64,000 nt of DNA from the human T2T-CHM13v2.0 reference genome, Homo sapiens: NCBI RefSeq assembly GCF_009914755.1, contig NC_060926.1; one strand, 5' to 3'. How positions within the stretch are numbered: the stretch's first letter is position 1; each line of letters starts with the position of its first letter. Position numbers and translations under genes: made by a program. The notes under the pieces were generated by a model that was given only the letters and a program-made list of their open reading frames with translations, was not told where the DNA came from and made no database searches. Of this stretch, positions 6,345 through 33,620 are shown one piece after another.

Positions 6345-7135
<791 letters not shown>

Positions 7136-23977: not shown

Positions 23978-24436
23978 GCTACGGTTTGAATGTCTCTTCC
24001 AAAATTCATCTTGAAATTTAATTGCCATTGTAACAGTATTAAGAATTAAGATATTTAAGAGGTGATTAAGCCATGAAGGCTCTGCCCTTGTGAATGAATT
24101 AATGTCTTTATCTCAAGCATGGGTTCCTATCACAAGAGTGTGCTACTTATCACAAGAGTGCTACTTATCACAAGAGGATTCCTATCACAAGAGTGTGATA
24201 CTTATCACAAGAGTGCTACTTATCACAAGAGGACGCATTTGGTCCTGTTTTGTCTCTGTCACCCTCTCTTGCCCTTCTACCTTCTGCCATGGGATGACAC
24301 AGCAAGAAGGCCCCTGCCAGATGCTGGCCCCTTGATCTTGGATTTCTCAGCCTCAAGAACCATGCCAATAAATTTCTGTTCATTATAAATTACCCAGTCT
24401 CTGGTATTTTGTTTTAGTAGCCCAAAGCAGACTAAG
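23978..24436 (+). mobile_element. MST-type MaLR solo LTR with internal minisatellite
   Basis: Starts tgctacggtttgaatgt, ends aataaatttctgttcattataaattacccagtctctggtatt...gactaaga. Confidence 0.85.
24124..24233 (+). repeat. 2 x 55-bp higher-order repeat, each copy with three TATCACAAGAG units
   Basis: Units at 24128, 24148, 24166, 24183, 24203 and 24221; the two 55-mers differ at one base. Confidence 0.93.
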
Positions 24437-25029
24437 AAATCAATAAGCAATGCAATGTTGCTTGGTTTGACTTGGTTTTCAAACTGCCTAAACTCAGAAA
24501 GATTTTCCAACTTGAGCATTGATCTAATAGGATGAACTAAAAGAAGAACAAATTTGGAGGGAAAGAAAGATAAAGAATAATGAGGAAGACATCTAATATC
24601 CTGCTGGGAAAAAAATAGACATTTCATTTGCTTAAAAGTAATATGCAAAATCAAAATACTATTTATTTACCACTTATGACCATAAGAGTTTCAAATATAT
24701 AAACTATAAATGATCTTTGTTGATGGAACGGTGATAATGCAAAAATGACATTTGTTGATCCTAAGTCTTTGTTCTGAAATTGCAAAGGACTTTCACAACA
24801 ATACCCCACTGAATTCTCTCAACTGAAATGGGCAGCACAAACCTCATTTTATAGATAACATTTAGTTAAGAGGGATTAAATAACATGCAAAAATTACACA
24901 AGTAGTGAGTAAATCACTCAAGACACAAACCCAGATCTGACTTACAGTTCTTCCTGTACTCCAGAGAAGGGCATAAGCACCCTCAGATGCTCCCAAGACA
25001 TTATTTTCTGGGGTAGAGAGGATGAGTTT

Positions 25030-25455
25030 ATGAGATTCTTCCTTTTCCAGCTACAAATCTGCATAAGGCCAGATCTTTTCATATACTTTAACCATACCAA
25101 TTTATGGCAACAGATTAAAATCAGATGCAATCATGAGAATTCTCATGCAATCACGAGAAAGCCAGATATTAAAGAGACTCAAAAATGAAAAATAATGCCA
25201 CTCTTCTAATTAGTTGTTTTGATTCAGTAAACGCAGTTATTTTCATAAAATGCATCATTTATATTAATATGTAATGGGTATATTGTTGTTATTTTAAATA
25301 AGTTAATAAATGTTTAGAAGTCTTTCATCATTTTTAATTTCTAAAACGGTAAATGCCAATAGATATAATCCACCACAAAAAGTTATTTGGGGTCCTCAAT
25401 AATTTTAAGAGTACAAAGGGCTCCTGATACCAAACCAAAAGTCTGACAAATACTG
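25030..25455 (+). mobile_element. hAT-Charlie fossil (Charlie4-like)
   Basis: Terminus ggggtcctcaataattttaagagtacaaagggctcctgataccaaa...aatactg. Confidence 0.55.
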
Positions 25456-25883
25456 CTCTACACTATGGTCCAAGCGAGTCCATTTCTCATCTACATTTTT
25501 AATATAGCATTTAATTTTCAAGTTTACCAAAGTAGCACATGCTTTTCTCTCACTCGTAGAAAAGGGCTAATGCAGAAAATATTTAAAAAATCATTTGACT
25601 AACAAACCCACTACCCTAATATAATCATTGTTAACATTTACAACATTTATTTCTCTCTGAGGTTTCTTTCTCACTTAGGAATACATTTTACATGTGATCT
25701 CTTGCTTGACATAATGCTTTTTTTCCAATTAACACTGTGCAAGGACTACTTAATGTGTGATGCTACTAATCCTATGTACAGGTCTTTTAATGGCTGCATA
25801 ATATTCTAACTCATATGTATAATTAATTTAGCCACTTCCCAGTTGTTAAATTCTTAAGCTGTGCCCTAATTTAAAATGTTATA

Positions 25884-26191
25884 AATGAGAGTGGTGAAAG
25901 AGGGCATCCTTGTCTTGCACTGGATTTCAATGGGAATGCTGCCAGTTTTTGCCCATTCAGTATGACATTGGCTGTGGGTCTGTCATAAATAGCTCTTATT
26001 ATTTTGAGATAAGTTCCATCAATACCTACTTTATTGAAAGATTTTAACATGAAGGGATGTTGAATTCTGACGAAGGCCTTTTCTGCATCTATTGAGATGA
26101 TCATGTGGTTTTTGTCATTGGTTCTGTTTACATGATGGATTACCTTTACTGATTTGTGTATGTTGAACCAGCCTTGCATCCCAAGGATGAA
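25884..26191 (-). mobile_element. Inverted 5' segment of L1PA (ORF2 RT region)
   Basis: Minus-strand [17 protein letters not shown]...ISIDAEKAF...RQGCPLSPL is L1 ORF2 RT. Confidence 0.93.
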
Positions 26192-27449
26192 CATAGTGCT
26201 AGAAGTTCTGGCAAGGGCAATCAGGCAAGAAAATGAAGTAAAGGGTATTCAAACAGGAAGACAGGAAGTCAAATTGTCTCTGTTTGCAGATGACATGATT
26301 CTCTATTTAGAAAACCCCATTGTCTCAGCCCCAAAACTCCTTAAGCTGATAGGTAACTTCAACAAAGTCTCAGGATACAAAATCAATGTGCAAAAATCAC
26401 AAGCATTCCTATACACCAACAATAGACAAGCAGCCAAATCATGAATGAACTCCCATTCACAATTGCTACAAACAATAAAATACCTAGGAATACAGCTAAC
26501 AAATAATCAGAAGGGCTTCTTCAAGGAGAGCTACAAACCATTGCTCAAGAAAATAAGAGAGGACACAAACAAAGGAAAAACATTCCATCTTCATGGATAG
26601 GAAGAATTAATATCGTGAAAATGGCCATGCTGCCCAAAGTAATTCATAGATTCACTGCTATTCCCATCAAACTACGATTGACATTCTTCACAGAATTAGA
26701 AAAAAATTACTTTAAACTTCATATGGAACCAAAAAAGAGCTCGTATAGCCAAGACAATCCTAAGCAAAAAGAACAAACCTGGAGGCATCACCCTACCTGA
26801 CTTCAAAGTATACTACAAGTCTACAGTAACCAAAACAGCATGGTACTGGTACCAAAACAGACATATAGACCAATGGATCAGAACAGAGACCTCAGAAATA
26901 ACACCACGTATCTACAGCCATCTGATCTTCCACAAACCTGACAAAAACAAGCAATGGGGGAAGGATTGCCTATTTAATAAATGGTGCTGAGAAAACTGGC
27001 TAGCCATACAAAGAAAGCTGAAACTGGACCCCTTCCTTATGCCCTATACAAAAATTAACTCTCGATAGATTAAATGTAAAACCCAAAACCATAAAATCCT
27101 AGAATAAAGCCTAGGAAATACCATTCAGGACATAGGCATGGGCAAAGACTTTATGATGAAAATGCCAAAAACAATTGCGACAAAAGCAAAAATTGACAAA
27201 TGGTATCTAATTAAACTAAAGATCTTCTGCACAGCAAAAGAAACTATCATCAGAGTGAACAGGCAATCTACAGAATGGGAGAAAATTTTTGCAATCTACC
27301 CATCTGACAAATGTCTAATATACAGAATCTACAAGGAACTTAAACAAATTTACAAGAAAAAAACAACCCCATCAAGAAATGGGCAAAGGATGTGAACAGA
27401 CACTTCTCAAAAGAAGACATTTATGCAACCAACAAACATATGAAAAAAG

Positions 27450-27927
27450 TATTTCAGTACTTCAAAGGTGGTGTTCCATTGATCTTCTGTCTTGCAATGT
27501 TTCTGATAAGAAATTTCATGTAATTCTTTTTCCCTCATTATGTATTATATCTCTTTATTCTGGCTGCATTTTCTTTTTTAAGGCTTTCAGGAGCATAAAT
27601 ACAAAGTGTGTAGTTGTTTTGTCTTTGGTATTTATTCTGCTTGACATTTTCTGAGCTACTTGAATCAGTATATTTTATTATTTTGGGAAAACTCTTGGTC
27701 ATTATCTCTTCAGTATTTTTTTCTGTTTTATTCTCTCTCTTTTCCCTCTATTTGTATTGCAATCCCATCTTCTTCCCATATTGTTAGAATCCAGCTTACT
27801 TAGCTACCCTATAACCTAAACTTTCTGCTGGGTTAAGGAAAAATTATAATTTTGAAGGTTATCTGGCATTTAATTACTATTAAGCTAGGAGTAATTCACT
27901 TAGCAGCTTCCTACTTTCTTGTCAGAA
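27450..27927 (-). repeat. 478-bp inverted copy of 31605-32082 inserted in L1PA
   Basis: Line-by-line comparison shows identity to the reverse complement of 31605-32082, with a constant coordinate sum of 59532 at both ends (no net indel). The ORF track gives an identical peptide from both copies. Confidence 0.95.
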
Positions 27928-27955
27928 AACTATAAATGATCTTTGTTGATGGAAC
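27927..27955 (+). repeat. 29-bp direct copy of 24701-24729
   Basis: aaactataaatgatctttgttgatggaac occurs at both positions. Confidence 0.93.
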
Positions 27956-29100
27956 TGATCATTAGAGAAATGCAAATCAAAACCACAATGAGATACCATC
28001 TCATGACAGTCAGAATGGCAATTATTAAAAAGTCAAGAAACAATAGATGCTAGTGACACTGTGGATAAATAGGAACACTTTTACACTCTTGGTGGGGATA
28101 TAAATTAGTTCAACCATTGTGAAAGACAGTGTGGCGATTCCTCAAGGATCTAGAACCAGAAATACCATTTGACCCAGCAATCCCGTTACTGGGTATATAA
28201 CCAAAGGAATATAAATCATTCTACTATAAAGACACATACACACGTATATTTTTTTTGCAGCACTATTTACAATAGCAAAGACATGGAACCAACGCAAATG
28301 CCCATCACTGACAGACTGGATACATATACACCATAGAATACTATGCAGCCATTAAAAGGAATGAGATCATGTCCTTTGCAGGGGCATGGATGAAGCTGGA
28401 AGCCATTATCCTCAGCAAACTAACATAGGAACAGAAAACCAAACACAAGTTCTCACTCATAAGTGGGAGTTGAACAATGAGAACACATGGACACAGGGAG
28501 GGGAACAACACACACCGGGGCCAGCCAGGGGGTTGGGGTGCGATGGGAGAGAGAGCATTAGGACAAATAGCTAATGCATGTGGGGCTTAAAACCTAGATG
28601 ATGGGTTGATAGGTGTGCCAAACCACCATGGCACACATATACTTATGTAACAAACCTACACATTCTGTACTTGTAACCCAGAACTTAAGGTAAAATAAAA
28701 AATTAATTAATTAATTAAAAAATTATCAATAAGGGAAGGTGCAAAGAGTTCCTAATGCTATTCCCTGTTTCTGGGTGGTAGATGAAGGCACACAAAAGAA
28801 CTCGTATGCTTTGTTGTGGCAAGGAAGGATTTGCTAATGCAACTAAATTAGCTTTAAATAATGTCCATTTAGGTTAATTTATTTATTCTACAAATGATCG
28901 TTAAACTAAGATTCAAATGACAAAAAAAAAAGTAGCCAACTGTGAGAAATTCCAGGGAAGAACACTCCAGCAAAACTTCATACAAATACATTCAGGCAGG
29001 ATCTGTTTGATATCTCTAAGGAACAGAAATTACCAGTATGGCCAGATGCTTCAAATTAATATTTTCCTCTTACGTGGCAAAAGTTTCTCATAGGCTCTTG

Positions 29101-29343
29101 TTTTTTTTTTTTTGAGATGGAGTCTCGCTCTGTCACCCAGGCTGGAGTGCAGTGGCACGATCTAGGCTCACTGCAAGCTCCGCCTCCCAGGTTCACGCCA
29201 TTCTCGTGCCTCAGCCTCCCGAGGAACTGGGACTACAGGTGCCCGCCACCACACCCGGCTAATTTTTTGTATTTCTAGTAGAAACGGGGTTTCACCATGT
29301 TAGCCAGGATAGTCTCAATCTCCTGACCTCGTGATCCGCCTGC
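29101..29343 (-). mobile_element. AluY, 5'-truncated
   Basis: ctgcaagctccgcctccc.ggttcacgccattctc; ends at gtgatccgcctgc. Confidence 0.9.
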
Positions 29344-31059
29344 TTACCTTAACCTTTAATATGATACATATTTAGATCTAGGAGTACATTACCCCTACCT
29401 GAAGAAGAGTATGTTAGTCTTTATCCTGGCCATTTTCCACATGGATGCTGGGAGAATGAATGCATAGGATATGTTAACTTTATATAATAAATATAAAGAT
29501 GTATAAAGACAATTATAAAGATAAGTAATGCGCTGACAAGTACAGAACCTAATCTGGCAATCATTTATGTTTTGCAGTACTGTTGGAGTAAAGTGGGATC
29601 TCTTATCTCTACTCAGTGATAATTTGATTATAAGCAAAAGATCTTATAAATATAAAACCATATATAATTTACGTTTAACTGGATGGGATATGAATAGCAA
29701 AAGAGGAGACATTTAGTAGAAGGTACCACTTTTTGAAGAAATCCAGTGGTGAAGAAAAGACAGGGTAGAAAGTTTGTTACAGAGATGGGATGGACAAGAA
29801 AAAGTTGTATTTGTTGGTTTGAGACATAATGAACAGTCATTTATCAGACACCTTCATTACTGATATACCTGAGAAATCAATGTAATCAATTTCTGGATGC
29901 AGAAATTGTTTTCATAATAGTGAAAATGTGAAGTTAAAAGTGTGAAAATCAACTCTGTACCTGCCCCTGTAAAACATATATAAGTTTTCATTTTGAGGGA
30001 TATAGTAAGGTAATAATAATATGCAATTATTGGAAATGATGGTCAACATCAAGCCACCATTTCTCAACCTGAAAGGTAAACTAAAAACTTTTCTCAGCAA
30101 CAGTCACTTGTTTCCATTCCAAGTTGGGAAGCAAGAGAAAGTTGATAATTTTTATTTTCAGACTAATTCTACTTTAATTTACAATTTTTTTCAACCACTT
30201 TATATATTCACTCATTCGACCATGCTAACATTTCCTTCCCTAAAATTCTATAACACTTACTAACCTAAATTTTTAATTCCCTACATATCATATGCTGGTG
30301 TATACTATTATTTATCCTTTCATATGATTATGTTTATCACCTCAGTAGACTATGGCTCCTTAAGAGAAAAAATCAAGACTAAATCTTTTTGAAACTTTTT
30401 GTGAGCTGGATTCCCATAAATTGACTAATTGGTCAGTATATGATCAAAAAGCAACACTGGCCACTTTATTAATTCTATTCATGTTTAGCAAAGATTTGTA
30501 TAACCTTTATCTAAGTAATAACTAAAAACTTAAATATAAAAGCACATGACTATTGCCAAAAATGGAGATAGATCATGGAGTAAGGCCATAATTATCTAAA
30601 GAGTAAGATTCACAAAGGTATAATACCTTTTAGTCAAGAGCTTTAATTTGTTTAGAGGGAAATAAAGCATTTATTAAAGGTACAATAACATATAAAAATG
30701 TCCATCATACTTTTGAAAGCTCTTAACTAGGCACAAGGGCAAAAAAAGGCATGGTCACACCCACTACAAGCAAACAGATGTTTATAACCAAAGCAGAAAG
30801 GGACATAGAGGGGTGGTGGTGAGTATTCTCTTCAAAAGGTTTATCTTCTCTTTAGAATCTAGAACAGCCACAAAGTTGTTTCTTTAAGTCATCAAGCTGT
30901 ACTGTGGCTAATCAAAAAGTAAAATAAAAGTCAGAACCCTAAGAATCCAATTATAAAAGCCTGTACAATTCAAAGTTCTAATTTTGTAAAAATACAGCGA
31001 AACAAAATTTTCTACAGATAAAATACAATAAATGCCCAAAGGAAGCAACATAAGTGTAC

Positions 31060-31410
31060 TTGGATTTCTCATTTTACTCCACCAGATTTATTCTCCATCC
31101 TTCTTTGTACATCACTATATCCTACAAGTTGACCATTACAGGTTGCATCAACAGACACTCTTGTCCTCTGGCTTTTTATTGGGGTTAGGCCAATGGAAAG
31201 CACAGTAGGGGATTGAAAGGCAGAAAGAGAATGAGGTCAGGGCACTGATTCTCCCAATCCTCTCTTGCCAGCTGTGGTTAGAGAGTGGCTACAGTCCAGT
31301 GAAGTAGCTTTTTCCTACAGTTACATCTCCTCAGGTTCAATAACTTCTCTCTTCCTTGCACCTTCAGGCTCAAGGGTAATAAAGGCAGGCCCTGGGTTCT
31401 GTACCATCTT
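31060..31410 (+). mobile_element. LTR33-like ERVL LTR fragment
   Basis: cttgtcctctggcttt...ggccaatggaaagcac...gagaatgaggtcaggg. Confidence 0.6.
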
Positions 31411-31749
31411 TTTGGTCTTACTTTGATGGCATAAATAATACCTTGATGGTATAAAAAATAAATTAACTAAACAACTAATCCAAATTAAGAGTTGGAGAAT
31501 AGGGAGGCAGAAAGAAGCAGAAATGTACTAATTTTCACATCTTTAATTGCTCAAAGCTGTTAGATAATACCTCAAAATAAATATGGAATTAGAGGGCTTT
31601 TAACTTCTGACAAGAAAGTAGGAAGCTGCTAAGTGAATTACTCCTAGCTTAATAGTAATTAAATGCCAGATAACCTTCAAAATTATAATTTTTCCTTAAC
31701 CCAGCAGAAAGTTTAGGTTATAGGGTAGCTAAGTAAGCTGGATTCTAAC

Positions 31750-33620
31750 AATATGGGAAGAAGATGGGATTGCAATACAAATAGAGGGAAAAGAGAGAGA
31801 ATAAAACAGAAAAAAATACTGAAGAGATAATGACCAAGAGTTTTCCCAAAATAATAAAATATACTGATTCAAGTAGCTCAGAAAATGTCAAGCAGAATAA
31901 ATACCAAAGACAAAACAACTACACACTTTGTATTTATGCTCCTGAAAGCCTTAAAAAAGAAAATGCAGCCAGAATAAAGAGATATAATACATAATGAGGG
32001 AAAAAGAATTACATGAAATTTCTTATCAGAAACATTGCAAGACAGAAGATCAATGGAACACCACCTTTGAAGTACTGAAATAAAAAAAAATGTCAATCAA
32101 AAATTCTTTCCCCAGCAAGCTATCTTTCAAAATTAAGAGGAAATAATGGCTTTCTTTCACACAAACAATAACTAATGTAAGTCCTTACTGGCAGTCCTGT
32201 ACTACAAGAAATGTTAAAGTTCTTCAGACAAAAGAAATATCATGGAAACCTGGATCTACACACACACAAATATAAGATCTTTAGAAATAGTTAAAGTGAA
32301 GGTAAACATTTTATTTAAAAAACAAAAAAGACTATTATTTTTACTCTAAAATATAATTGAATCTCTAAAGCAACAATATTAGCAATTATATAAAAAGTTA
32401 ATTATATGATAAAGGTAGAACAAAAGATGTGAAAAGGAATTGGAAAAATACTGTTGGAAAGTTTAACAATACATATGATGATTAACCTTCATTAAAAATG
32501 CATATCCTAAAGCCTAGCAACCACTAACAAAATATTAAAAAGAGGTTTTAATAATAAGTCCATGAAATGATACAAAATACTTAGTTAATCCAAAGGAGGC
32601 AGACTTAACATATTTAAAGGGAAAATTCAAAAATTGGAAGATACAAGTTAAGAAAATATACAGAATGCAACACAGGAAAACAATAAAATGAGAAACATGA
32701 AAGGCACAAGAAGTAATAGAGATTAGAGTACACGGTACTAACAAATATCTAATTAGAATCCTAGAAGGAGGGAAACAAGAAAATGGAAAAGAGATATTCA
32801 AAAAGATAATGGCTAATAATTTTCCAAAGTTAGAAATTACCTTGATTCTAAAGTTAGAGAAATGTAAAAAAACCTAAGAAGGATAAATACAAATAAAATA
32901 ATCAATAAACACATTGCATTGAAACTGTAGCACATCAAAGACAAAGCATTACAAAAACAGCATGAGGAAAATAAAGACAAACTGCTTTGAAGGGAACAAC
33001 ATATAAGCTAAGAGCTAATTTCTCAACAACAATAAAAATCAGAAGGCAGTGGAATTCTCAAGAGATATGCTTTAGGAAGAAAAAAGTTATCTCGGAAAAG
33101 ACATCTGAGGTACAAAAGGAAAACACAAGCAAGGAAAAGTGATATACAAATAGGTAAATCTAAATAATCCATTGATCATATAAAACATTTTTAAATCTAG
33201 TCTGTTAATAAAAATAGAATAAAACTAAAATTATATATATTATATATGCACATATAATAATAAATATATATTCATAGAATTTGAGAAGTAAAGCATTTTA
33301 AGCTCCTGTTTTAGCTGGTAAGAGATTAAAGATATTATTTTTAGGCTGTTAATTTTAATATGTGTGTTAAAATACCTAGGATAATAATTAAAAGGGTAAA
33401 AATTAAATGCAAAAAACACAATCTAGCAGTGGGGGGAGAATACAATGTGAACCATAAACAAAATGCACTAAACTCCTCCCTGCAAAAGCAAGAGAGTAGA
33501 AAATAGGAAAAGAGAAAAAGTAGAATAAATCAAAAGAATAAAATGCAATGTTAAATGTAATTCACAGAAAATGTGAATAAACAGATTTATGCAGTTAAAA
33601 GCAACAGATTATCAGACCAG
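31750..33620 (+). mobile_element. Ancient L1M ORF1-region fragments
   Basis: A-rich degenerate ORF1 text (gaagagataatgaccaagagttttccc; aaaagataatggctaataattttccaa). Boundaries approximate. Confidence 0.55.

What the first reader, a model, noticed from the sequence alone, without database searches (positions are those of the whole stretch)
27450..27955. Two-template insertion inside an L1: a recent template-switching scar
Seen: L1PA sequence stops at ...catatgaaaaaag (27449). It is followed by 478 bp identical by eye to the reverse complement of 31605-32082 (about 4 kb downstream), then 29 bp identical to 24701-24729 (about 3.2 kb upstream, direct orientation). L1 then resumes at actgatcattagagaaatgc, with roughly 10 bp missing relative to my recalled consensus. 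Junction overlaps are 1 nt (A, 27927) and 2 nt (AC, 27954-27955); there is no poly(A) or TSD. Established: multi-template local inserts with micro-homology are the signature of FoSTeS/MMBIR or polymerase-theta-type repair, not retrotransposition. Inference: the host L1 is visibly decayed while the copies show no mismatch, so the event is far younger than the L1 and may be human-specific or polymorphic. It lies about 16 kb upstream of COL5A2.
Basis: partly seen in the sequence, partly recalled or inferred. Interest (0 to 1): 0.8.

Follow-up and report, generated by a model that had tools for sequence, protein, structure and literature searches.

The report
Two-template copy-paste insertion in L1
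An old, dead L1 element upstream of COL5A2 is interrupted by error-free copies of two nearby sequences, the scar of one young DNA repair or replication accident of a kind already catalogued in human genomes.

Summary
Window 27450-27927 is a perfect reverse-complement copy of 31605-32082 (478 nt). Window 27927-27955 is a perfect direct copy of 24701-24729 (29 nt). In the whole T2T assembly each piece has only these two copies.

The insert splits a decayed L1 ORF2 remnant. Six other L1 copies carry 9 nt at that point that are missing here. There is no poly(A) and no target-site duplication. Junction overlaps are 0, 1 and 2 nt, which is no more than chance gives.

The L1 is only 84-90% identical to the closest copies scored, whereas the insert shows 0 differences in 506 nt. 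That gives a 95% upper age of about 6-7 Myr.

Best reading: one copy-and-paste event, a "bridge of templated insertions" or inverted dispersed duplication made by template switching. Human-specific or polymorphic status could not be tested, because no other human or ape sequence was available.

Such inverted duplications are a catalogued class: 277-311 events in 1,019 genomes. Interest is modest. One side effect is a 478-nt perfect inverted repeat with a 3.7-kb spacer.

The parts
26136..27449 (+). Left part of the host L1 ORF2 remnant (direct segment). It ends ...ATGAAAAAAG at 27449.
   Evidence: Pfam RVT_1 on the 26136-26444 ORF, profile positions 130-193. The ORF2 frame is broken into many pieces. 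26520-27449 is 87-90% identical to other genomic L1 copies (40 of 18468 candidates scored).
27443..27448 (+). A6 run in the L1 immediately before the left breakpoint.
27450..27927 (+). Insert segment A': a perfect inverted copy of 31605-32082 (478 nt).
27927..27955 (+). Insert segment B': a perfect direct copy of 24701-24729 (29 nt). It shares 1 nt with A' and 2 nt (AC) with the resuming L1.
27954..28720 (+). Right part of the host L1 (ORF2 C-terminal region and 3' end). It resumes at ACTGATCATT. 9 nt of L1 are missing between 27449 and 27954.
   Evidence: The L1 relatives L003-L008 carry 9 nt between the two flanks. 27954-28730 matches other L1 copies at 84-88% up to query position about 748-769.
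31605..32082 (-). Source A, the template of the 478-nt patch. It is unique in the genome apart from the copy and contains an old dispersed repeat.
32082..32090 (+). A9 run (T9 on the minus strand). Copying of source A begins or ends at its first base.
24701..24729 (+). Source B, the template of the 29-nt patch.
27928..31604 (.). 3,677-nt spacer now enclosed by the 478-nt perfect inverted repeat. It could be inverted by recombination between the arms (inference).
   Evidence: distance between the arms. The inversion risk is inferred, not observed.

Best explanation
A single mutational event on the human lineage broke, or stalled replication in, an old L1 ORF2 remnant at about 27449/27954. Nine L1 bases were lost. 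Before the two sides were rejoined, a DNA 3' end copied two nearby templates in succession: 478 nt from 3.7-4.1 kb downstream in inverted orientation, and 29 nt from 2.7 kb upstream in direct orientation. The sources were left intact, so this was copy-and-paste rather than cut-and-paste.

In current vocabulary it is a 'bridge of templated insertions', or an inverted dispersed duplication with an insertion-site deletion. It was made by polymerase template switching of the FoSTeS/MMBIR type, and the last junction was a blunt end-join.

My preferred sub-model is inferred and I put it at about 35%. It assumes a two-ended break with long resection. The right-hand minus-strand 3' end first primed on the left end's single-stranded plus strand at B (cross-junction synthesis, 2-nt overlap). 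It then folded back on its own single-stranded tail at A (foldback synthesis, 1-nt overlap) and stopped on entering a 9-nt homopolymer. Finally it was captured by the left end without homology.

The product is a neutral scar with no evident function. Its one structural consequence is a new 478-nt perfect inverted repeat around a 3.7-kb spacer.
For: Shown:
- Both patches are perfect, and each has exactly one other copy in the 3.1-Gb assembly, both within 4.6 kb on the same chromosome.
- The patches abut with a 1-nt overlap and together replace 9 nt of L1. These 9 nt are present at that position in all 6 L1 relatives examined.
- There is no poly(A) and no target-site duplication.
- A path of three template switches reproduces the 601-nt allele exactly in either direction of synthesis.
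- The insert is young: 0 differences in 506 nt with 0 CpG. Mean time to the first difference is 2.0-2.5 Myr and the 95% upper bound is 5.9-7.4 Myr. The host L1, by contrast, is 84-90% identical to its closest scored relatives.

From papers:
- Strings of 2-7 templated segments that return to the host chromosome leaving a gap are defined as 'bridges' and ascribed to replication-based template switching (PMC7025897, passages).
- Inverted duplications called as insertions are the commonest non-mobile-element 'inversion' class in 1,019 long-read genomes: 277 events, median 284 bp, and a replicative origin is suggested (PMC12350158, passages).
- In yeast, foldback insertions arise by a hybrid route. 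[quoted passage not shown] This matches the 2-nt, 1-nt, 0-nt order of overlaps seen here.

Inferred:
- In the sub-model, both templates are exactly the strands that resection of one break would leave single-stranded (my reasoning, checked against the path).
Against: - Junction overlaps of 0, 1 and 2 nt do not exceed chance. They therefore do not separate template switching from plain end-joining of pre-made fragments.
- MMBIR synthesis is described as error-prone (recalled), yet the 506 copied bases carry no error. This is weak evidence, because few errors are expected over 506 nt.
- The sub-model needs at least 2.75 kb and at least 4.13 kb of resection (distances) while the 3' ends stay almost intact.
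- The foldback patch is larger than the 2-150 bp seen in yeast and the under-10-bp templates of TMEJ.
- No read-level, population or outgroup data were available. So a single event, germline origin and timing are all inferences.
- No PRDM9 13-mer lies near the site; the only one in the window is at 6530. Nothing therefore points to a meiotic hotspot as the trigger.
Confidence: 0.78

Rival explanations
1. End-joining capture of free DNA fragments. Two pre-formed fragments of 478 and 29 nt, released from the sister chromatid or homologue (for example by flap processing or over-replication), were ligated into a double-strand break in the L1 by classical NHEJ. No template switching by the broken end was involved.
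For: Overlaps of 0, 1 and 2 nt are at chance level and typical of NHEJ. Yeast work describes capture at breaks of templated fragments from elsewhere in the genome via NHEJ (PMC11724301, passages).
Against: Both fragments come from within 4.6 kb of the break, one from each side. Captured fragments in the yeast study came from all over the genome. Local origin on both sides is what copying from the broken ends or the local fork predicts.
Confidence: 0.1
2. An old insertion, predating the human-chimpanzee split or much older, whose 478-nt arms have been kept identical by intrachromosomal gene conversion.
For: Perfect identity alone cannot exclude conversion. The 29-nt piece is too short to date: at the rates about 0.7 differences would be expected in 25 Myr (my arithmetic).
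Against: It requires sustained conversion between short arms with not a single unconverted difference. Without conversion, the probability of 0 differences is 0.02-0.07 at 6.5 Myr and below 0.01 at 12 Myr.
Confidence: 0.06
3. Reverse-transcriptase-mediated insertion. This would be aberrant L1 target-primed reverse transcription, or RNA-templated break repair, using local transcripts such as pre-mRNA of the long COL5A2 isoform.
For: The 478-nt patch has the sense of the minus-strand (COL5A2) transcript that would cover its source (hub annotation). The break follows an A-run inside an L1.
Against: There is no poly(A) and no target-site duplication, and 9 nt are deleted instead. The 29-nt patch has the opposite sense, so two transcripts from opposite strands would be needed. 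The 3' end at the left junction ends in A6G rather than the T-run that primes on poly(A), and neither priming direction gives complementarity to the homopolymer beside source A (reasoned).
Confidence: 0.03
4. An assembly artefact: the structure does not exist in CHM13 DNA.
For: Nothing positive. No reads could be inspected here.
Against: The structure has three clean junctions and a small target deletion. The arms lie only 3.7 kb apart in otherwise unique sequence. From recalled knowledge, that is well inside single HiFi/ONT read lengths. Collapse or mis-join errors do not create a compound two-source patch. A private or cell-culture origin in CHM13 is not an artefact; it falls under the best explanation with a very recent date.
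Confidence: 0.02

Closest known systems
Bridge of templated insertions (PCAWG classification; PMC7025897, passages read)
   Same: A string of segments copied from elsewhere is inserted at one locus and returns to the host chromosome leaving a gap, here 9 nt. The sources are retained. There are several junctions in one event.
   Different: PCAWG events are somatic, are found in cancers, and the segments are typically on different reference chromosomes. This one is carried in a reference assembly, with both templates within 4.6 kb in cis.
Germline inverted duplications called as insertions in 1,019 long-read human genomes (PMC12350158, passages read)
   Same: It is a few-hundred-bp inverted duplication of the kind called as an insertion (277 events, median 284 bp, against 478 bp here). 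There is little or no breakpoint homology, and a replicative origin is proposed.
   Different: This event has a second, direct 29-nt template and a 9-nt target deletion. Whether this locus is in that call set is unknown: the part of the spreadsheet that could be read has no chr2 row starting 18919, 18920, 18968 or 18969 and no COL5A2 entry, but the file is cut and is not a full call set.
FoSTeS/MMBIR complex rearrangements (described in the introduction of PMC11541566; original papers recalled, not read)
   Same: Multiple breakpoint junctions, mixed orientations and nearby templates in one allele.
   Different: The classical cases are kb-to-Mb copy-number gains with 2-5-nt or longer microhomology (recalled). 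Here the gain is 0.5 kb and microhomology is at chance level.
Polymerase-theta-mediated end joining (TMEJ) templated insertions: foldback, cross-junction and strand-switching classes (PMC11541566, passages)
   Same: The geometry matches. One inverted patch can be read as foldback on the priming end's own tail, and one direct patch as cross-junction synthesis on the other end (path).
   Different: The scale differs. TMEJ templates are typically under 10 bp and within about 20 bp of the break. Here the patches are 29 and 478 nt, copied from 2.7-4.1 kb away.
Yeast foldback templated insertions by hybrid Pol-delta synthesis plus NHEJ or alt-EJ capture (PMC11724301, abstract and passages)
   Same: One end primes at tiny homology and the other end is captured with none. 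Complex insertions contain inverted pieces.
   Different: The yeast foldbacks are 2-150 bp, mostly under 14 bp, and start right next to the break.

Membership tests
Templated-insertion bridge / template-switch (FoSTeS-MMBIR type) rearrangement | Two or more novel junctions joining non-adjacent reference segments in one allele | tested here: met
   Three junctions: L1|A', A'|B' and B'|L1.
Templated-insertion bridge / template-switch (FoSTeS-MMBIR type) rearrangement | Inserted segments are copies, with the source loci retained | tested here: met
   Both sources are intact. Each sequence has exactly two places in the genome.
Templated-insertion bridge / template-switch (FoSTeS-MMBIR type) rearrangement | The string returns to the host locus leaving a gap (a bridge, not a cycle or chain) | tested here: met
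   The L1 resumes in the same orientation. The 9 nt present in all 6 L1 relatives are missing.
Templated-insertion bridge / template-switch (FoSTeS-MMBIR type) rearrangement | Microhomology at junctions above chance | tested here: not met
   Overlaps are 0, 1 and 2 nt (mean 1.0) against 0.77 expected from local base composition. Three junctions give little power.
Templated-insertion bridge / template-switch (FoSTeS-MMBIR type) rearrangement | Error-prone synthesis: extra point mutations in or near the copied tracts | tested here: inconclusive
   There are 0 differences in 506 copied nt. The flanks cannot be assessed without the ancestral allele.
Templated-insertion bridge / template-switch (FoSTeS-MMBIR type) rearrangement | Arose in one event and depends on replicative or repair polymerases | not testable with these tools
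   This needs haplotypes with intermediate states, or genetics.
Pol-theta TMEJ templated insertion | Short template, typically under 10 bp net, lying within tens of bp of the break | tested here: not met
   The patches are 478 and 29 nt, with templates 2,720-4,127 nt from the break, against the scale reported in PMC11541566.
Pol-theta TMEJ templated insertion | Foldback (inverse) or cross-junction (direct) template orientation relative to the ends | tested here: met
   The path from the right-hand minus-strand 3' end uses the left end's plus strand (direct) and its own strand (inverse), and it reproduces the allele.
L1-mediated retrotransposition (TPRT, transduction, processed insertion) | Poly(A) tail at the 3' end of the insert | tested here: not met
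   The insert starts with TATTTCAG and ends with GATGGAAC, with no A- or T-tract at either end.
L1-mediated retrotransposition (TPRT, transduction, processed insertion) | Target-site duplication | tested here: not met
   The flanks are not duplicated. Instead, 9 nt of the target are lost.
NAHR / segmental duplication | Extended homology at the breakpoints | tested here: not met
   Ungapped comparison by eye of the 20-nt flanks printed gives 1, 8 and 5 matches of 20 at the three junctions. No tract is longer than 4 nt.

The most novel reading that the evidence does not exclude
The insertion is a human-lineage, possibly still polymorphic, allele whose by-product matters. It creates a 478-nt perfect inverted repeat with a 3.7-kb spacer, 16.5 kb upstream of the main COL5A2 promoter and inside an intron of longer COL5A2 transcripts. 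Such a repeat could drive recurrent inversion of 27928-31604. It could also fold the long-isoform pre-mRNA into a 478-bp perfect double-stranded RNA, a substrate for ADAR editing or a ligand for dsRNA sensors. A second, mechanistic version I put at about 30%: the event is a natural germline record of kilobase-scale foldback plus cross-junction synthesis on the two resected tails of one break.
Probability: 0.12. Interest if true: 0.55.

Novelty: new member of a known kind. Interest (0 to 1): 0.3.

Why it matters
This is a clean, base-perfect, three-junction example of a local two-template insertion in the T2T reference. It is useful as a teaching or benchmark case for complex-SV callers and for models of template switching. 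In particular, the strand logic fits use of both resected tails of one break.

The mutation class is already catalogued in population long-read data and in cancer genomes, so it does not change what is known. Its practical relevance is threefold:
- It may differ between references and haplotypes, as a net +495-bp allele.
- It adds a perfect inverted repeat near COL5A2 that could seed inversions or double-stranded RNA.
- Short reads from either arm will map ambiguously.

Tried and rejected
2. Population or outgroup status.
   - No human or primate genome other than the window's own assembly is searchable, so presence in GRCh38, the pangenome or apes could not be tested.
   - The readable spreadsheet of PMC12350158 has no COL5A2 entry and no chr2 row starting 18919, 18920, 18968 or 18969, but the file is cut and is not a full call set.
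   - The supplementary files of PMC8492059 contain no COL5A2 row.
   - The tables of PMC5411763 gave no hit.
   - PMC11794170 lists COL5A2 only as 'flanked' by repeat pairs in GRCh38, which says nothing about this pair. Its full maps are on GitHub and could not be reached.
   - The Audano 2019 and Kronenberg 2018 papers are not held. One recalled PMC id led to an unrelated paper.
   - The GRCh38 position used for these searches rests on a recalled COL5A2 coordinate.
3. Meiotic-hotspot trigger: the only PRDM9 13-mer in the window is at 6530, about 21 kb away. This gives no support, but it is weak evidence because many hotspots lack the motif (recalled).
4. Source A as a mobile element: it contains an old dispersed repeat (73-86% matches elsewhere over 290 nt or less), but nothing close enough to be the donor.
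5. An inversion with duplicated breakpoints (staggered-break model): rejected, because the L1 resumes in the same orientation on both sides of the insert.
6. Homopolymer-assisted priming: the A6 run at the L1 break and the A9/T9 run at the edge of source A are not complementary in either direction of synthesis (reasoned). They may only mark places where a polymerase pauses.
7. Extended imperfect homology at the junctions: none was seen, with 1, 8 and 5 matches of 20 (by eye).
8. Literature search for this locus (COL5A2 together with inverted duplication, templated insertion, human-specific insertion or dispersed duplication): no listed paper contains COL5A2 (15 of 79 papers listed).

Full report
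OBSERVATION

The window reads L1 sequence up to ...ATGAAAAAAG at 27449, then 506 nt of foreign sequence, then L1 again from ACTGATCATT.

The repeat finder on 24000-33000 reports a 478-nt, 100% complementary inverted pair (27450-27927 and 31605-32082) and a 29-nt, 100% direct pair (24701-24729 and 27927-27955). A direct string comparison confirms both. It also shows that the two copies share the single A at 27927.

Nothing comparable exists elsewhere in the window. The next longest exact repeats are 53 nt or shorter and lie at places the hub's table masks as roughly 300-nt repeats; I take them to be Alu copies, which is my reading.

In the whole 3.1-Gb assembly the 478-mer has only these two 100% places. 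All other matches are 67-86% over 290 nt or less, mostly to query positions about 165-300. This shows that source A merely contains an old dispersed repeat (40 of 58 candidates scored). The 29-mer occurs exactly twice at up to 3 mismatches, and the backwards-read control pattern gave 0 matches.

THE HOST AND THE TARGET-SITE LOSS

The flanks belong to a dead L1.
- ORFs at 25871-26248 (minus strand) and 26136-26444 (plus strand) hit Pfam RVT_1 (E 6.9e-13 and 7.5e-08).
- The ORF2 frame is fragmented over many short open stretches.
- The closest L1 copies scored are 87-90% identical over 930 nt on the left (40 of 18468 candidates scored).
- On the right they are 84-88% identical over about 750 nt (40 of 13481 scored). 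Closer copies could exist among the unscored candidates.

Many other L1 copies match both flanks of the insert, with 11 nt between the matched blocks in those I checked. Reading six of them (L003-L008) shows that all six carry 9 nt between the base after the A-run and ACTGATCAT. In 2 of the 6 these read CTCAACATC; the other four have variants. So 9 nt of L1 were lost, or up to 11 if the shared AC and one A of the variable run are counted.

The G at 27449 is L1-derived, since it is present in 4 of 6 relatives. The AC at 27954-27955 is present in 6 of 6, so it is a genuine 2-nt ambiguity between B and the L1.

The family name 'L1PA' could not be tested.

JUNCTIONS

The overlaps are 0 nt (L1|A'), 1 nt (A'|B') and 2 nt (B'|L1). 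With the local base composition, random junctions give 0, 1 or 2 nt with probabilities 0.52, 0.29 and 0.12, a mean of 0.77. The observed mean of 1.0 is not an excess.

No extended imperfect homology is visible in the 20 nt before each junction: 1, 8 and 5 matches of 20, compared by eye.

Copying of source A starts or ends at the first base of an A9/T9 run (32082-90), and the L1 break follows an A6 run. The two runs are not complementary in either direction of synthesis, so at most they mark pause sites.

There is no poly(A) at either end of the insert and no target-site duplication.

AGE

The 506 copied bases have 32% G+C, no CpG and no difference from their sources.

With 0.4-0.6e-9 substitutions per bp per year on each copy (recalled rates), the mean time to the first difference is 1.6-2.5 Myr and the 95% upper bound is 4.9-7.4 Myr. 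The probability of zero differences is 0.02-0.07 at 6.5 Myr and below 0.01 at 12 Myr.

If derived variants on one lineage are spread evenly over time (my assumption), about 33-46% of the posterior lies below 1 Myr and about 93-98% below 6.5 Myr (one minus the values). Origin on the human lineage is therefore likely. Polymorphism is possible but not the majority expectation.

MECHANISM

The sources are retained, both lie within 4.6 kb on either side of the site, the two patches are fused, and the host resumes in register with a 9-nt gap. The most economical account is one event in which a 3' end copied two local templates before the break was closed.

Both directions of synthesis reproduce the 601-nt allele exactly. 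I prefer the direction starting from the right-hand minus-strand 3' end. In that direction the two templates are exactly the strands that resection of a two-ended break leaves single-stranded:
- the plus strand at B on the left fragment, which needs at least 2,748 nt of resection;
- the minus strand at A on the right fragment, which needs at least 4,127 nt.

In that direction the overlaps run 2 nt, then 1 nt, then 0 nt. That is, the end primes twice on minimal homology and is finally captured blunt.

This mirrors the 'cross-junction' and 'foldback' classes of templated insertion (PMC11541566, passages). It also mirrors the yeast hybrid route of Pol-delta synthesis at one end plus NHEJ or alt-EJ capture at the other (PMC11724301, abstract and passages). 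The scale here is much larger: TMEJ templates are typically under 10 bp and within 20 bp of the break, and yeast foldbacks are 2-150 bp.

A fork-based template switch (FoSTeS/MMBIR) explains the same structure, and sequence alone cannot separate the two. The steps that are shown are the structure, the uniqueness of the sources, the target loss and the youth of the insert. The steps that are inferred are the single event, the polymerase route, the direction of synthesis and the trigger.

RIVALS

- NHEJ capture of free fragments fits the chance-level overlaps, but not the strictly local, two-sided origin of the pieces.
- An old insertion homogenised by gene conversion cannot be excluded without outgroups, but it requires sustained conversion with no residue.
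- A reverse-transcriptase route lacks poly(A), a target-site duplication and a T-rich primer, and it would need transcripts of both strands.
- An assembly artefact is very unlikely for three clean junctions in unique sequence whose arms are only 3.7 kb apart. Reads were not inspected.
- No PRDM9 motif lies within about 21 kb.

COMPARISON WITH WHAT IS KNOWN

In the PCAWG scheme this is a bridge of templated insertions (PMC7025897).

In germline long-read data, inverted duplications first called as insertions are the commonest non-mobile-element 'inversion' class: 277 events after filtering, or 311 reclassified, with a median of 284 bp. They mostly show 1-15 bp of microhomology, and a replicative origin is suggested (PMC12350158).

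De novo templated insertions and dispersed or inverted duplications are also seen in trios (PMC12583596).

The present case is therefore a new, very clean member of a known class. It is distinguished by its second short template and by the strand logic described above. Whether this very locus is already in a call set could not be determined. No listed paper from the locus-specific search contains COL5A2.

CONSEQUENCE

The event created a 478-nt perfect inverted repeat around a 3,677-nt spacer. It lies 16.5 kb upstream of exon 1 of NM_000393.5 and within an intron of longer COL5A2 transcripts (hub table).

[quoted passage not shown] If transcribed, the arms would form a perfect 478-bp RNA duplex. 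Both effects are predictions, not observations.

VERDICT

It is a new member of a known kind, of modest interest.

Noticed in passing
window 25871-26444: The host L1 looks 5'-inverted, as in twin priming. A minus-strand ORF (25871-26248) matches RVT_1 profile positions 44-132, and the adjoining plus-strand ORF (26136-26444) continues at profile positions 130-193. No target-site duplication was looked for.
   Followed up: partly
window 25784-25808 versus 28334-28358: A 25-nt, 96% complementary pair. The left arm lies just outside the inverted L1 piece and resembles the ORF2 C-terminal region of the direct piece. This suggests a further minus-strand L1 fragment to the left of 25871.
   Followed up: no
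window 24121-24230: A tandem duplication of a 55-nt unit (96% identical). The unit is itself built of shorter repeats of a ...CTTATCACAAGAGTG... motif. It lies about 470 nt upstream of source B.
   Followed up: no
window 31783-31918 (about positions 165-300 of source A): Source A contains an old dispersed repeat, with dozens of genomic matches at 67-86% identity. The family was not identified.
   Followed up: partly
window 32082-32090 and 27443-27448: Both partners of the homology-free junction abut homopolymer runs: A9 at the edge of source A and A6 in the L1. These may be polymerase pause or dissociation sites. Their significance was not tested.
   Followed up: partly
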